From Dehalococcoidia bacterium (GTDB lineage: Bacteria > Chloroflexota > Dehalococcoidia > Lucifugimonadales > Australimonadaceae), in NCBI GenBank assembly GCA_965248455.1, contig OZ252105.1, positions 200,993 to 264,992 on the forward strand: a stretch of DNA of 64,000 bases, given 5' to 3'. Below, piece after piece: positions 61,033 to 64,000 of this stretch. Below the pieces are notes generated by a model that searched no databases, was not told where the DNA came from, and was given only the letters and a program-made list of their open reading frames with translations. The stretch's first letter is position 1; each line of letters begins with the position of its first letter. The translations under genes were made by a program, and so were the position numbers.

Positions 61033-62220
61033 TCAATCATGCACCTGCTTCTGATGCTGGAGGTATATCTCCTTGTGTTCGCGCGCGGATTGCAGCACGG
61101 AGAGGCAGACTTCGAGGTTCGCCTTCCCCCAGCGCCCGTCGTGCAGAGGCGGGACGCCGTTGACGATGGCGTCGTGCAGTTCCGTGAGGATGTTATCGCG
61201 TCCGGACGTGCCCTTGACCAGCTCGACCTCGCGTTGCCCATCCTCGGCATAGACGAGCAGGCCGTCGGGCGACTGGCGGATGTCGCCGCGTTCGCAACTG
61301 ATGAGGAGCAGGCCGTAGAAGGGAAGGTGCGACGGTGTGTTGCGGTTGCGCGCGCCGGATGCCCCGTAACGAACGCTGCGCTTCAGCGCCTGCTCATGCG
61401 CTTTATCGCCCTGCCGTAGCCTGGCGCGCGCCGCTCCGTAGGACGACACGTCGAACGGCTGTCCGCCCTCTCCTACGTTGAAGCCGAGCTCGGCGGTGCG
61501 GAAGCGGTCGTAACCGTTGTACACGGCTGTTGCGGCCACCCCGTCCTCGAACTCCAGGAAGATGGTGTGCGCGCCCTCGGCAGGCCGCGAGGGGTCGAAC
61601 TTCCCCGTCATCGCGCGAACGCTGCGGACGAGCCCGCCTCCGATCAGCCTGATGACGTCGAACTGATGCGAACCCTGCCGGAAGGTGACGCCGCCCCCGA
61701 GCGAGGTGTCGAGCTCCTCCGGGTTGCGCGGTCGGTACATCCAATCGGTGTAGTACCAGTTGTGCAGCATGCGGAGCGGCCCCAACTCCCCGCTTGCGAC
61801 GAGTGTGCGTATCGCTTTGATGGGCGTTTCATAGCCGAACGAATGGCCGACCATGAACGTAACGCCCGCCTTGTCCGCCGCCTCGATCATCTTGTCGGCA
61901 TCGTCGAGGTTGGTGGCGATGGGTTTCTCGGATACGACGTGCTTGCCATTGGCTATCGCGGCAAGGACGTGGCCGGTGTGATGCTGCGTGGGCGTCGAGA
62001 CGAACAGTGCGTCGATGTTGGGCGACTCAGCGATCGCCTCGGCGCTGGTGAAGGTTTCGGCGTTGGGGAAGTCGGCCTTGAATCGGGCCAGCGTCTCCTC
62101 GTCGAGGTCTGCGGCGCCGGCCATCTCGAAGTTGGGGTTCTTCACGGCTGGAGGCACCAGAGCGCCCCCGGCGGTGCCGAGCCCGACGATTCCGAATCTG
62201 ATGGGTTTCGTAGTGGTCAT
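61033..62220 (-). CDS. Gfo/Idh/MocA family oxidoreductase (copy 3)
   Basis: IRFGIVGLGTAGG Rossmann motif and VVSEKPIAT. Collinear with copies 1 and 2. Confidence 0.85.
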   Translation of the reverse strand: MTTTKPIRFGIVGLGTAGGALVPPAVKNPNFEMAGAADLDEETLARFKADFPNAETFTSAEAIAESPNIDALFVSTPTQHHTGHVLAAIANGKHVVSEKPIATNLDDADKMIEAADKAGVTFMVGHSFGYETPIKAIRTLVASGELGPLRMLHNWYYTDWMYRPRNPEELDTSLGGGVTFRQGSHQFDVIRLIGGGLVRSVRAMTGKFDPSRPAEGAHTIFLEFEDGVAATAVYNGYDRFRTAELGFNVGEGGQPFDVSSYGAARARLRQGDKAHEQALKRSVRYGASGARNRNTPSHLPFYGLLLISCERGDIRQSPDGLLVYAEDGQREVELVKGTSGRDNILTELHDAIVNGVPPLHDGRWGKANLEVCLSVLQSAREHKEIYLQHQKQVHD

Positions 62221-62290: not shown

Positions 62291-62677
62291 CCCCTCGTCG
62301 TTCCCCGCACTAGGCCCCGCCGTTCCCGTGGAGACGGGAACCTCGCATCCCTGCCCCTGTTCGGGTGTATGGGGCGGCCCCACCATCGTTCCCGCGAAGG
62401 CACGAACCTCGCATCCCTGCCCCTGCCCGGTGTTAGGGCCGTTCGCGAATGGCCCTAACGTCATGCCATCCCCAACGTACGCTCAACCCCCAAACCAACG
62501 ACAACTGCCCATTACGCCATAGCCCGCTGATTGCTACATTGTTCGCATACGTCGCTCCCGCGAAGGCACGAACCTCGTATCCCTGCCTCCTGCCCGGTGT
62601 TAGGGCCGTTCGCAAATGGCCCTAACGTCATGCCATCCCCAACGTACGCTCAACCCCCAAACCAACGACAACTGCCC
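62291..62677 (-). repeat. repeat array B-B-D-B-D(5' part), reverse orientation, cut by IS110
   Basis: B at 62291-62357, 62384-62427 and 62549-62590. D at 62431-62543 and 62598-62677, truncated at …caactgccc. Confidence 0.85.
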
Positions 62678-62684
62678 CTTGTAT

Positions 62685-62827
62685 GGTGGTGAGAGGCGGG
62701 GTAGGCCGTTTGCCCCTTGGTCGCTGAGACCGTGCGTAAGCATGACCGCCCCGCCTCTATTCCACCCGCCCTACCGGTAGCCCGAACAGTTGCCTGAGCT
62801 AGTGAGCTCGTATTCACAAGGCAGGGC
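62685..62827 (+). ncRNA. putative IS110 bridge RNA (two stem / internal-loop modules) in the left end
   Basis: Stem 62692-62701 pairs with 62749-62758 (10 bp), plus 62685-62689 with 62762-62766. Its loop holds tgcccct (62711-62717, same as target-left plus core) and gcgtaag (62734-62740, complement of cttacgc at 63810-63816). The second module holds acagttg (62786-62792, same as the right IS end) and acaag (62816-62820, complement of cttgt at the left junction). Confidence 0.55.
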
Positions 62828-62854
62828 ACGGAAGGGCAGTCAGGAGCATAGCGT

Positions 62855-63793
62855 ATGGACTCATCCCTCTGCATCGGCATAGACGTTTCCCAGGATTGGC
62901 TCGATCTCGCGGCTCACCCAACCGGACAACCCCAGCGCTTCAAGACCACTCCCGCCGGCCTGCATTCCCTCGTCGAGCACTGTCGCGATGCTCAGCCCCG
63001 CCTGATTGCCTTCGAAGCCTCCGGCGGTTACGAACGCCCTCTCTCCCACGCACTCACCCACGCCCAACTCCCCTTCGCCATCCTCAACCCCCGCAACGTC
63101 CGTTACTATGCCCGCTCCACCGGCGTCCTGGCTAAGACCGACCGCATTGATGCGGCCGTCATCGCCCAGTTCGCCCACGACATCCGCATCCAGCCGAAGC
63201 CTGCGCCGTCGCGCCCCGAGCAGACCGTGCGCGATCTTGCCACCCGCCGCAATCAACTGGTGGGGGACCACACGCGGGTGCGACACCAAGCCCGGCTGTT
63301 CTCCGGCGCAAGCCTGGCCAGCGCGAAGCGCCATCTCGCCTTCCTGAAGCGGGAGATCGCGGCGGTGGAGCAGGAACTGCGGAGGGTCATCGCCCAGGAT
63401 GTCTCCCTGCGCGAGCGTTGGGAGCGGCTGCGGAGCGTTCCTGGCGTGGGTGAGACCCTAGCGGCAGCGCTACTCGGCAGTATGCCGGAGCTGGGACACT
63501 TGAACCGAGCAGCGGTCGGGATGCTGGCAGGCCTCGCCCCGCACGCCCGCGACAGCGGGAAGCGCGAGGGGAAGCGCTTCTGCTGGGGCGGGCGTGCAAA
63601 CGTGCGGAGGGCGCTGTACATGCCTATGCTCTCGGCAGTCCAGCACAACCCCGTGATACGCACGTTCTACCAGCGGCTGCTGGACCAGGGTAAGCCGAGG
63701 AAGGTGGCGCTCGTCGCATGCATGCGCAAGATGCTGACCATACTGAATGCCATCCTGCGTGAGGAGACCACCTGGGACCCACAAATCGCTTGA
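62855..63793 (+). CDS. IS110-family transposase/recombinase (DEDD RuvC-like + Tnp domain)
   Basis: CIGIDVSQDWLD…AFEASGGYE…KTDRIDA… and C-terminal SVPGVGETLAAALL…GKR…GGRANVRRALYM motifs. AGGAG RBS. Confidence 0.9.
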   Translation: MDSSLCIGIDVSQDWLDLAAHPTGQPQRFKTTPAGLHSLVEHCRDAQPRLIAFEASGGYERPLSHALTHAQLPFAILNPRNVRYYARSTGVLAKTDRIDAAVIAQFAHDIRIQPKPAPSRPEQTVRDLATRRNQLVGDHTRVRHQARLFSGASLASAKRHLAFLKREIAAVEQELRRVIAQDVSLRERWERLRSVPGVGETLAAALLGSMPELGHLNRAAVGMLAGLAPHARDSGKREGKRFCWGGRANVRRALYMPMLSAVQHNPVIRTFYQRLLDQGKPRKVALVACMRKMLTILNAILREETTWDPQIA

Positions 63794-63810
63794 CCTGCTA
63801 TCACAGTTGC

Positions 63811-64000
63811 TTACGCCGTACCCCCGCCGACTGCTACATTGTTCGCATACGTCGTTCCCGCGAAGGCACGAACCTCGCCTCCCCGCCCCCTGTCTGGATG
63901 TAGGGGCCGTTCGCGAACGGCCCTAACGTCATGCCACCCCAACGTACCTCCCAAACCAACGACAACTGCCCATTGCGCCGCCATCGCGCCGGCCCTTACA
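63811..64000 (-). repeat. rest of the interrupted module D, then B, then another D; runs off the window
   Basis: ttacgccgta…ctgctacattgttcgcatacgtcgttcccgcgaaggcacgaacctcgc…gtaggggccgttcgcgaacggccctaacg…. Confidence 0.85.

What the first reader, a model, noticed from the sequence alone, without database searches (positions are those of the whole stretch)
62680..63811. IS110 element with a readable bridge-RNA: loop sequences match the module-D target and the element's own ends
The element splits a D repeat between …actgccc and acgcc…, with CT(T) at both junctions. The 175-nt left end folds by eye into two stem / internal-loop modules.

Module 1 has stems 62685-62689 with 62762-62766, and 62692-62701 with 62749-62758.
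- Its 5' side carries tgcccct (62711-62717), identical to target-left plus core.
- Its 3' side carries gcgtaag (62734-62740), the exact complement of core plus target-right cttacgc (63810-63816).

Module 2 has an outer stem 62768-62772 with 62823-62827 and an apical hairpin at 62796-62809.
- It carries acagttg (62786-62792), identical to the last 7 nt of the element (63803-63809).
- It carries acaag (62816-62820), the complement of cttgt at the left junction.

This is the target-loop/donor-loop logic described for IS621-type bridge RNAs, which also target REP-like repeats. The other five D copies in the window read cccATTacg instead of cccCTTacg at this site, so they are near-cognate targets differing in the core.
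Basis: partly seen in the sequence, partly recalled or inferred. Interest (0 to 1): 0.7.

Follow-up and report, generated by a model that had tools for sequence, protein, structure and literature searches.

The report
IS110 element with bridge RNA
This is an ordinary but very clearly readable mobile element of the IS110 family: its 175-base leader encodes a two-loop "bridge RNA" that spells out both the repeat it inserted into and its own ends, a mechanism first described in 2024.

Summary
Window 62680-63809 is a 1130-bp IS110-family element with a CT core at both junctions, inserted in a REP-like "D" repeat. It encodes a 312-aa DEDD/Ser recombinase homologous to IS621 and ISCro4.

Its 175-nt left end folds into two stem/internal-loop modules. 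40 of 41 base pairs show compensatory changes across about 75 related left ends.

Loop 1 carries TGCCCCT (left target plus core) and GCGTAAG (complement of core plus right target). Loop 2 carries ACAGTTGC (element end plus C) and ACAAG (complement of core plus element start).

The decisive evidence is that close relatives (70-88% aa) keep the stems and donor loop but carry different target-loop sequences. Each matches its own, different flanks: the right guide is 7/7 in 19 of 20 loci, and a permutation test over 34 guide types gave 0 of 10,000.

Corrections:
- The core is CT, not CTT.
- The module-2 outer stem pairs with 62833-62837, not 62823-62827.

All 14 unoccupied D copies seen have an AT core, and all 7 occupied ones have CT at both junctions. 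The likeliest reading is that only rare A-to-C variants are permissive.

Verdict: a new member of a known kind, of modest interest. In passing, Rfam sX15 is the antisense strand of a homologous bridge-RNA region.

The parts
62665..62677 (+). Left half of the interrupted D repeat (left target, ...ACGACAACTGCCC). The five bases TGCCC (62673-77) are read by the left target guide.
   Evidence: The same left flank occurs at six other copies of this IS.
62678..62679 (+). Left copy of the CT core dinucleotide.
   Evidence: Relatives with other flanks share only CT at both junctions. Unoccupied cognate sites of relatives contain a single CT.
62680..63809 (+). IS110-family insertion sequence, 1130 bp. 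It has no terminal inverted repeats (7 of 30 matches) and is single-copy in the window.
62680..62854 (+). Non-coding left end of 175 nt: the inferred bridge RNA gene.
   Evidence: - Fold.
- Own covariance model R1 scores 191.5 bits here and finds full-length homologues directly upstream of the recombinase gene in about 60 distant loci.
- 90.3% of cells are paired and 40 of 41 pairs show compensatory change.
- Rfam sX15 hits the opposite strand at 62680-62847.
62685..62766 (+). Target-binding module.
- Stems: 62685-89 with 62762-66, 62692-702 with 62748-58, 62704-05 with 62746-47, and 62706 with 62744.
- Inner hairpin: 62718-32.
   Evidence: The MFE pairs inside the loop are kept in only 63.5% of cells among close relatives, so they are not a conserved stem.
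62709..62717 (+). Left target guide UUUGCCCCU. The last 7 nt (62711-17) are identical to the top strand TGCCC+CT, so the guide would pair with the bottom strand.
   Evidence: This is the hypervariable block of alignment A1 and it covaries with the left flanks.
62734..62740 (+). Right target guide GCGUAAG, complementary to the top strand CT+TACGC (63810-16).
   Evidence: The corresponding guide matches its own right flank 7/7 in 19 of 20 related loci.
62741..62742 (+). Candidate handshake guide CA. It is complementary to donor positions 7 and 6 (G and T of ...GTTG|CT) and not to the target (C, C).
   Evidence: Read from the sequence against the rule in PMC11208158. This is an inference.
62768..62837 (+). 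Donor-binding module.
- Stems: 62768-72 with 62833-37, 62774-76 with 62829-31, and 62780-83 with 62824-27.
- Apical hairpin: 62796-809.
62786..62793 (+). Left donor guide ACAGUUGC. It is identical to the element end ACAGTTG plus core C (63803-10). The next base is C where the core has T.
   Evidence: The guide and the element end are conserved together in all close relatives.
62812..62820 (+). Right donor guide AUUCACAAG. ACAAG pairs with CT+TGT. After a 2-nt bulge, AU can pair with the next AT of the element start (9 RNA nt with 7 DNA nt).
   Evidence: and sequence reading. A discontiguous 9-with-7 pairing is described for IS621 (PMC11208160).
62821..62822 (+). Candidate handshake guide GC. 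G is complementary to target position 7 (C). The second base is not complementary.
   Evidence: Sequence reading against PMC11208158. This is an inference.
62842..62846 (+). AGGAG ribosome-binding site, 8 nt before the ATG.
62855..63793 (+). Recombinase gene, 312 aa. It has a DEDD RuvC-like domain (D10, E54, D96, D99) and a Tnp domain with S234-G235.
   Evidence: - Pfam PF01548 at 6e-21 and PF02371 at 1e-18.
- PDB ISCro4 9t56 at 4.6e-35 and IS621 8wt6 at 2.7e-34 over residues 6-308.
- Residue positions.
63790..63795 (+). TTGACC, a -35-like hexamer overlapping the stop codon. In a circularised element it lies 18 nt upstream of TATGGT (62682-87).
   Evidence: No promoter-like site is found in the integrated arrangement. 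The hexamer is conserved in relatives. Promoter function is inferred from IS621.
63794..63809 (+). Right end, only 16 nt after the stop codon. It ends in the left-donor sequence ACAGTTG.
63810..63816 (+). Right copy of the CT core (63810-11) and the right target TACGC (63812-16), the right half of the D repeat.
62506..62517 (+). Unoccupied near-cognate D site TGCCC-AT-TACGC. The others are at 58450-61 (+), 63967-78 (+, TGCCCATTGCGC), 7743-54 (-) and 7913-24 (-).

Best explanation
Window 62680-63809 is an intact IS110-group insertion sequence that moves by bridge-RNA-guided recombination of the IS621 type.

Guides:
- The 175-nt left end is transcribed into an RNA with two internal loops.
- Loop 1 (target-binding) reads the 12-bp site TGCCC-CT-TACGC. 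A same-sense left guide reads one half and a complementary right guide reads the other.
- Loop 2 (donor-binding) reads the joined ends of the element, ...ACAGTTG-CT-TGTAT..., in the same way.

Inferred reaction, from IS621:
- The element circularises, which brings a -35 box in its right end next to a -10 box in its left end.
- The RNA bridges the circle and the target inside a recombinase tetramer.
- Ser234, working with the DEDD site, cuts the top strands just 3' of CT. The strands are exchanged, helped by the CA and G handshake bases.
- The Holliday junction is resolved on the bottom strands, which leaves CT on both sides.

Shown here in silico:
- The boundaries and the CT core.
- The protein family and its catalytic residues.
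- The conserved RNA structure.
- Covariation of the guides with the flanks.

Inferred from IS621:
- Transcription, circle formation and the chemistry.

The D-repeat consensus has AT where the guides and the donor have CT. The many unoccupied copies are therefore probably poor targets, and only rare A-to-C variants are hit.
For: - Protein: both IS110 domains are present. It is homologous to the IS621 and ISCro4 recombinases, with D10/E54/D96/D99 and S234-G235 aligned to D11/E60/D102/D105 and S241-G242 (residue roles from PMC11208158).
- Structure: the MFE fold gives two modules. Model R1 finds full-length homologues immediately 5' of the recombinase gene in about 60 loci at 31-48% aa identity. 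There, 90.3% of cells are paired against 64.3% in shuffles and 34-56% in slid controls, and 40 of 41 pairs have compensatory changes.
- Strand: frequent U-G pairs (for example 22 and 36 sequences at two pairs) would be C-A on the other strand.
- Guides: among close relatives the variation is concentrated in the two loop-1 guide blocks. Six guide types match their own flanks at 14.45 of 16 positions, against 9.56 for non-cognate flanks. The right guide is 7/7 in 19 of 20 loci.
- Clade-wide: across 34 guide types in the wider clade, own-flank matches exceed all 10,000 permutations.
- Empty sites: unoccupied sites of relatives have a single CT and a perfect guide match, at L002:5667, L086:17, L002:914 and L003:608.
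- Other copies: six further copies of this very IS (two of them decayed) lie in the same D site.
- Promoter: the junction reads TTGACC-18-TATGGT only in the circle, and no promoter-like site exists in the integrated state.
- Transcription of a homologue: the Xanthomonas RNA asX7 is confirmed by Northern blot (PMC3300014; mapping).
Against: - No transcript, circle junction or recombination data exist for this element. No RE-LE junction was found in any fetched locus.
- No curated bridge-RNA family in Rfam 15 matched the sense strand.
- The left target guide matches only 7 of 9 positions here. The left donor guide mismatches the second core base.
- Exceptions among relatives: L085 carries guides that do not fit its flanks (a hybrid left end with a decayed stem), and L087 has 3 mismatches on the left side.
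- All 14 unoccupied D copies seen have an AT core, so no unoccupied fully cognate site was observed for this particular IS.
- The covariation counts were made on an alignment fitted to the model's structure.
Confidence: 0.9

Rival explanations
1. The element is a true IS110 with a once-functional bridge RNA, but this copy (or the whole lineage) is now an inactive relic. The loop matches record a past insertion only.
For: Decayed copies exist. L095 has lost the donor-loop hairpin and part of the gene. L096 encodes only a 188-aa fragment. L085 has a hybrid left end. No circle junction was seen.
Against: The window copy has an intact ORF with all catalytic residues and intact stems and guides. 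An identical protein and left end occur at another locus, and copies 99% identical in protein, with one or two left-end substitutions, at three more. This indicates recent spread.
Confidence: 0.12
2. The abundant AT-core D copies are the real targets, and the C at both junctions is copied from the donor during or after insertion (core conversion).
For: There is a perfect association: 14 of 14 unoccupied D copies have AT, and 7 of 7 occupied copies have CT on both sides. No other flank difference marks a CT subfamily.
Against: - In the IS621 mechanism the top strand is cut 3' of the core and the bottom strand on the other side of it (PMC11208158). Each product strand would therefore keep the target core at one junction.
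- An AT target should leave AT at one junction, which is never seen.
- The sample of occupied sites was collected through the IS, so the 7:14 ratio is ascertainment-biased.
- D copies differ at other positions too, so a few per cent of A-to-C variants is plausible.
- Both target guides specify C.
Confidence: 0.05
3. The left-end structure is mainly a regulatory 5' leader or the target of an antisense RNA (as with the sX15/asX7 pair in Xanthomonas). On this view the loop matches to the flanks are incidental.
For: Rfam sX15, an experimentally detected RNA, corresponds to the antisense strand of a homologous left end (PMC3300014). The RBS lies in the 3' tail of the left end.
Against: - Incidental matches cannot explain why loop-1 sequences change together with the flanks in six close and 34 wider guide types.
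- The joint chance of the four matches in this copy is about 2e-7.
- A regulatory role could exist in addition, but it does not replace guiding.
Confidence: 0.03

Closest known systems
IS621 bridge recombinase system of Escherichia coli (PMC11208160, PMC11208158; PDB 8wt6)
   Same: - Two-domain DEDD plus Ser recombinase (E = 2.7e-34 over residues 6-308).
- Non-coding RNA encoded in the left end, about 175 nt, with the target-binding loop first and the donor-binding loop second.
- Left guides have the same sense as the top strand, right guides are complementary to it, and the CT core is included.
- Discontiguous pairing of the right donor guide, and handshake positions 3' of the right guides.
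- A -35/-10 pair split between the right and left ends.
- Insertion into REP-like repeats.
   Different: - A distant orthologue from an uncultured lineage. Its nearest relatives are in Dehalococcoidia MAGs.
- No separate 5' stem-loop ahead of the target module (in IS621 the target loop is nucleotides 34-98).
- A longer right target guide: 7 nt including the core, against 4.
- A left target guide matched at 7 of 9 positions.
- The left donor guide mismatches the core T.
- Nothing has been tested experimentally.
ISCro4 transposase (PDB 9t56)
   Same: It is the best-scoring solved relative of the recombinase (E = 4.6e-35), with the same catalytic motifs.
   Different: Only the protein could be compared.
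sX15 / asX7 locus on Xanthomonas plasmid pXCV183 (Rfam RF02234; PMC3300014)
   Same: - It is a homologous left end. My model R1 hits it at 52 bits.
- It has the same donor-guide block CCCGAACAGTTGCC.
- It is followed by an IS110-type N-terminus, MNGIGIDV.
- asX7 is the sense RNA over the target-binding module and was detected by Northern blot.
   Different: - Rfam models the antisense strand (sX15), which is why the window hit is on the minus strand and below threshold (38.1 bits against 55).
- The Xanthomonas RNAs were described as sRNAs of unknown function. No paper in the library links them to bridge RNA.
ISPpu9 / ISPpu10 of Pseudomonas putida (PMC12288879; bioRxiv 10.64898/2026.03.19.712850)
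   Same: These are IS110-family elements inserted in multi-copy repetitive extragenic sequences. For ISPpu10 a hairpin next to the target adds specificity. The relatives found here also target hairpin-forming repeats.
   Different: The window's own insertion point is not in a hairpin arm. The nearest palindrome (62599-62626) lies about 50 nt upstream. The P. putida sequences were not compared directly.
IS1111-group elements with seekRNA
   Same: The same recombinase superfamily and the same idea of RNA-guided choice of target and donor.
   Different: Here only 16 nt follow the stop codon and the structured RNA lies 5' of the gene.

Membership tests
IS110 family (IS110 group) bridge-recombinase element | N-terminal RuvC-like DEDD domain with the four acidic residues. 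| tested here: met
   PF01548 at E = 6e-21. D10, E54, D96 and D99 align with IS621 D11, E60, D102 and D105 (roles).
IS110 family (IS110 group) bridge-recombinase element | C-terminal Tnp domain with the catalytic serine followed by glycine. | tested here: met
   PF02371 at E = 1.4e-18. S234-G235 in RDSGK aligns with YESGS of IS621 (S241-G242).
IS110 family (IS110 group) bridge-recombinase element | No terminal inverted repeats, and a 2-bp core (usually CT) present at both junctions and once in the empty site. | tested here: met
   The ends match at 7 of 30 positions. CT lies at 62678-79 and 63810-11. Empty sites with a single CT were found for two related IS types. No empty CT site was found for this IS itself.
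IS110 family (IS110 group) bridge-recombinase element | Structured non-coding RNA of about 150-200 nt in the left end, with two stem/internal-loop modules. | tested here: met
   Fold. Stems among close relatives. Clade-wide: 40 of 41 pairs show compensatory change and 90.3% of cells are paired.
IS110 family (IS110 group) bridge-recombinase element | Target-binding loop in which the left guide equals the top strand of left target plus core, and the right guide is the complement of core plus right target. Both covary with the insertion site. | tested here: met
   7 nt plus 7 nt in the window. Cognate matches average 14.45 of 16 against 9.56 for non-cognate. A permutation test gave 0 of 10,000. 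The exceptions are L085 and the left side of L087.
IS110 family (IS110 group) bridge-recombinase element | Donor-binding loop in which the left guide equals the element end plus core, and the right guide is the complement of core plus element start. | tested here: met
   ACAGTTGC is 8 nt (reached in 0.34% of resamplings). ACAAG is 5 nt, plus AU after a bulge. The guides and the ends are conserved together. The second core base is mismatched in the left guide.
IS110 family (IS110 group) bridge-recombinase element | Handshake guides: the bases 3' of each right guide pair with position 7 (and 6) of the other DNA, not with their own. | tested here: met
   CA (62741-42) pairs with donor G7 and T6, not with target C and C. 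G (62821) pairs with target C7, not with donor G7. This is a sequence reading against the rule. Target position 7 is C in all relatives, so covariation could not be tested.
IS110 family (IS110 group) bridge-recombinase element | A promoter reconstituted across the RE-LE junction of the circular form. | tested here: inconclusive
   TTGACC-18 nt-TATGGT (9 of 12 matches) exists only in the joined form. No promoter-like site exists in the integrated form. This is a consensus match only, and the promoter rules of this lineage are unknown.
IS110 family (IS110 group) bridge-recombinase element | Expression of the RNA, and RNA-dependent recombination. | not testable with these tools
   Only indirect evidence exists: the homologous sense RNA asX7 was detected in Xanthomonas (PMC3300014).
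Rfam RF02234 (sX15) | A score at or above the gathering threshold on the modelled strand. | tested here: not met
   38.1 bits against a threshold of 55, on the strand opposite to the recombinase gene. The family models the antisense strand of a homologous left end.
IS1111 group (seekRNA 3' of the gene) | Guide RNA encoded downstream of the recombinase gene. | tested here: not met
   Only 16 nt lie between the stop codon and the element end. The structured RNA is upstream.

The most novel reading that the evidence does not exclude
The element does use the abundant AT-core D copies as targets, and the C seen at both junctions of all seven occupied sites is donor-derived. That would imply a core-conversion step, or a different cleavage geometry, that is not part of the IS621 model.

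A milder variant is that the D-repeat family is held one core nucleotide away from the IS's specificity. In that case a single base gates the spread of the element.
Probability: 0.07. Interest if true: 0.6.

Novelty: new member of a known kind. Interest (0 to 1): 0.3.

Why it matters
The finding adds no new mechanism. It is a clean natural example, from an uncultured lineage whose nearest relatives are Dehalococcoidia MAGs, of how bridge RNAs are reprogrammed in nature.

Sister elements at 70-88% protein identity keep the scaffold and the donor loop. They have swapped the target-loop guides to follow different REP-like repeats. This could supply orthologues and natural guide sets for engineering.

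Two by-products may be useful:
- The repeat consensus differs from the cognate site only in the first core base. This offers a natural test of core stringency.
- The Rfam family sX15 and the Xanthomonas RNA asX7, described in 2011 as sRNAs of unknown function, can be re-read as the antisense and sense transcripts of a bridge-RNA region.

Tried and rejected
- Rfam scan of the region: there was no sense-strand hit up to E = 10, only sX15 on the antisense strand. An Rfam gathering scan of 20 related loci found no sX15.
- Empty-site search: both scans of JGI metagenome contigs, for the unoccupied CT-core and AT-core D sites, found nothing. The organism is simply absent from that collection, so the result is uninformative.
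- Neighbouring gene: looking up 61033-62220 to find a strain without the IS gave only a 2.9-kb contig that stops short of the site.
- Circle junction: a search for a circle or tandem junction (CACAGTTGCTTGTATGG) in all 96 loci found none.
- Promoters and terminators: the integrated region has none, so the transcription start is inferred only.
- pXCV183: accession AM039951 was not in the plasmid collection. NC_007507 worked.
- MFE pairs inside loop 1: rejected as a real stem, because they are kept in only 63.5% of cells among close relatives.
- A CTT core: rejected in favour of CT.
- Not done: structure prediction of the protein was judged unnecessary, given the PDB sequence matches.
Full report
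**1. What is in the sequence**

The element runs from 62680 (TGTATGG...) to 63809 (...CACAGTTG).

Comparison with 19 related copies shows that the only sequence shared by both junctions is CT, at 62678-79 and 63810-11. The third T is a coincidence of this particular target.

Other basic features:
- There are no terminal inverted repeats (7 of 30 matches), and the IS is single-copy in the window.
- It interrupts one unit of a tandem array of composite repeats about 167 bp long. These repeats contain a 28-bp palindrome, GTTAGGGCCGTTCG/CGAATGGCCCTAAC. The insertion point is about 50 nt downstream of that palindrome.

**2. The protein**

ORF 62855-63793 (312 aa, with AGGAG 8 nt upstream) has the two IS110 domains, PF01548 and PF02371.

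It aligns over residues 6-308 with the two solved bridge recombinases: ISCro4 (9t56, E = 4.6e-35) and IS621 (8wt6, E = 2.7e-34).

D10, E54, D96, D99 and S234-G235 align with the residues shown to be essential in IS621, namely D11, E60, D102, D105 and S241-G242 (PMC11208158).

**3. The RNA structure**

The MFE fold of the 175-nt left end gives two stem/internal-loop modules (-77.4 kcal/mol, z = -2.9).

*Close relatives.* Among nine distinct left ends (alignment A1) the stems are almost invariant. They show compensatory changes at three pairs.
- One is GGUGG/CCACC against GGUGA/UCACC.
- Another is GCCCU/AGGGC against GUCCU/AGGAC.
Positions 62824-27 pair with 62780-83 instead.
- The pairs that the MFE draws inside loop 1 are kept in only 63.5% of cells, so they are not a conserved helix.

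*Wider clade.* I built a covariance model from A1 (R1).
- It finds the window's left end at 191.5 bits.
- It finds full-length matches directly upstream of the recombinase gene in about 60 loci whose proteins are only 31-48% identical. These come from Alpha- and Gammaproteobacteria, Verrucomicrobia, Acidobacteria and others.
- On that alignment 90.3% of cells pair, against 64.3% in shuffles and 34-56% when partners are slid.
- 40 of 41 pairs show changes on both sides.
- The alignment is fitted to the model, which inflates pairing somewhat, but the controls are far below the observed values.
- Frequent U-G pairs argue for the sense strand.

**4. The guides**

In the window:
- Loop 1 carries UUUGCCCCU on its 5' side. 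Its last 7 nt equal the top strand TGCCC+CT.
- Loop 1 carries GCGUAAG on its 3' side, the complement of CT+TACGC.
- Loop 2 carries ACAGUUGC, equal to the element end plus core C.
- Loop 2 carries ACAAG, the complement of CT+TGT. After a 2-nt bulge, AU can pair with the next AT of the element start.

Shuffled left ends reach these matches as follows:
- left target guide 3.3%;
- right target guide 2.2%;
- left donor guide 0.34%;
- right donor guide 9%;
- both target guides together, 18 of 20,000.

The strand logic is exactly that described for IS621 (PMC11208160). Left guides pair with the bottom strand and right guides with the top strand. The core is included in the pairings. The right donor guide pairs discontiguously, 9 RNA nt with 7 DNA nt.

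The two bases 3' of each right guide fit the handshake rule of PMC11208158:
- CA (62741-42) is complementary to donor positions 7 and 6 (G, T) and not to the target.
- G (62821) is complementary to target position 7 (C) and not to the donor.

**5. The decisive test: covariation with the insertion site**

*Other copies of this IS.* Six further copies were found: L080-83, four intact copies at 99-100% protein identity, plus two decayed ones, L095 and L096. All lie in the same D-repeat site, with different sequence further out.

*Relatives.* Relatives at 62-88% identity keep the stems, the donor loop and the element ends. Their variation is concentrated in the two guide blocks of loop 1. Each guide type matches its own flanks:

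| Left guide / right guide | Site |
|---|---|
| CCCCATCCU / AGGUUAG | CCCCATC-CT-AACCT |
| ACUAGCCCU / GGGAGAG | CCTAGCC-CT-CTCCC |
| UCUCCCCCU / GGGAGAG | xxxCCCC-CT-CTCCC |

- The right guide matches 7/7 in 19 of 20 loci, and the left guide matches 6-9 of 9.
- Own flanks score 14.45 of 16, against 9.56 for non-cognate flanks.
- For two of these types I found unoccupied copies of the target repeat with a single CT and a perfect match (L002:5667, L086:17, L002:914, L003:608). This confirms the boundaries.
- Across 34 guide types in the wider clade, a crude longest-match statistic is higher for own flanks: left 6.5 against 4.4, right 7.1 against 5.3. None of 10,000 permutations reached the observed sum.

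*Exceptions.*
- L085 has a hybrid left end. Loop 1 is of one type and the 3' part of another, with a broken stem. It sits in a site of the window type.
- L087 has a perfect right match but three mismatches on the left.
- Half-matched insertion has been reported for IS621 (bioRxiv 10.64898/2026.08.31.748434).

**6. Expression (inferred)**

In the integrated state no sigma-70-like promoter or terminator is found.

If the ends are joined, TTGACC (63790-95, overlapping the stop codon) lies 18 nt from TATGGT (62682-87). That is 9 of 12 consensus matches. Both hexamers are conserved in relatives. IS621 uses the same arrangement.

Indirect evidence for transcription comes from Xanthomonas.
- The only Rfam hit in the region is sX15 (RF02234) on the minus strand, covering 62680-62847 (38.1 bits, below the threshold of 55).
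- On plasmid pXCV183, sX15 lies on the plus strand (150.9 bits).
- My sense-strand model hits the minus strand there (52 bits).
- An IS110-type N-terminus (MNGIGIDV...) follows on the minus strand, and the donor-guide block CCCGAACAGTTGCC is present.
- sX15 is therefore the antisense strand of a homologous left end.
- asX7 is the complementary RNA confirmed by Northern blot in 2011 (PMC3300014). It starts at the 5' base of the target-binding module.
- No paper in the library connects these RNAs with bridge RNA.

**7. The AT/CT puzzle**

All 14 unoccupied D copies that I could read (in the window, L080, L091-93 and L095) have TGCCC-AT-T(A/G)CG(C/G)C. All 7 occupied copies have CT at both junctions.

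In the IS621 mechanism the top strand is cut 3' of the core and the bottom strand on the other side. Each product strand therefore keeps the target's core at one junction. An AT target should leave AT at one junction, and this is never seen.

The occupied sites were collected through the IS, so the ratio is biased. The D copies also differ at other positions.

The simplest reading is that the IS requires CT, as both target guides and the donor specify. It would then hit only the rare A-to-C variants of a repeat whose consensus is one core base away from cognate. CT is strongly preferred in IS621.

Core conversion remains possible but unlikely. Relatives differ in this respect: the repeats they target have CT in the consensus.

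**8. Comparison and verdict**

Every testable defining feature of an IS110-group bridge-recombinase element is met. The junction promoter is only a consensus match, and activity is untested.

Differences from IS621 are of degree:
- no extra 5' stem-loop;
- a longer right target guide;
- a left donor guide that skips the second core base.

Bridge RNAs and their covariation with thousands of natural targets have been published since 2024. This is a new member of a known kind, well read by the first-stage reader.

I score interest at 0.3. What it offers is a clean natural reprogramming series, the core-gated repeat family, and the re-reading of sX15/asX7.

Noticed in passing
window 62680-62847 (minus strand); L094 1879-2037: Rfam family RF02234 (sX15, Xanthomonadaceae sRNA) models the antisense strand of the left end of an IS110-family element. 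The complementary RNA asX7, confirmed by Northern blot (PMC3300014), is the sense transcript over the target-binding module. No paper in the library links either RNA to bridge RNA.
   Followed up: partly
window 58450-61, 62506-17, 63967-78 (+), 7743-54, 7913-24 (-); also L080, L091-93, L095: All 14 unoccupied D-repeat copies have an AT core where the IS guides and the donor have CT. All 7 occupied copies have CT at both junctions. The repeat consensus is thus one core base away from cognate.
   Followed up: partly
L095 2047-3026: This is a decayed copy of the window's IS. It has a 14-nt deletion of the donor-loop apical hairpin. A D-repeat fragment with an AT core (...AACGACAACTGCCCATTACGCCATAGCC...) replaces part of the N-terminal coding region. 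It could be a real rearrangement or an assembly artefact.
   Followed up: partly
L085 825-1000 and flanks: This is a hybrid left end. Its target-binding loop is of the L001 type (CTAACCCT / GGGAGAG) and its 3' part is of the window type, with a broken stem. It sits in a window-type site, CCGCCC-CT-TACGCC. It looks like recombination between related IS copies after insertion.
   Followed up: no
L091 1510-2457, 10001-13560; L092 8664-10939: Two or three different IS110-family elements lie side by side in repeat arrays. Their left ends also match model R1 (87-88 bits) with other guide sequences. The arrays act as landing pads for several bridge-RNA elements.
   Followed up: no
L002 5667, L086 17, L002 914, L003 608: These are unoccupied, perfectly cognate target repeats of the related IS types. 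Their right target is the 5' arm of a hairpin (CT|AACCTTCCCCCATCAAGGGGGAAGG, CT|CTCCCCTTGTAGGGAGAGG). This recalls the target stem-loop requirement reported for ISPpu10.
   Followed up: partly
window 15661, 21138, 49549, 50894, 53475, 59664: A motif of about 32 nt, CGCAGGCCGTGCTCCTCCGG-TATGCCGTAGGA, recurs six times with few changes. It is probably a conserved stretch of paralogous genes.
   Followed up: no
window 62318-62677 and 63843-63960: The IS lies in a tandem array of composite repeats (spacing 166-167 bp). These contain a 28-bp palindrome, GTTAGGGCCGTTCG/CGAATGGCCCTAAC. There is a weak sub-threshold Rfam hit, Betaproteobacteria-1, on the minus strand at 63843-63949 (18 bits, E = 1.3), which is most likely chance.
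   Followed up: no
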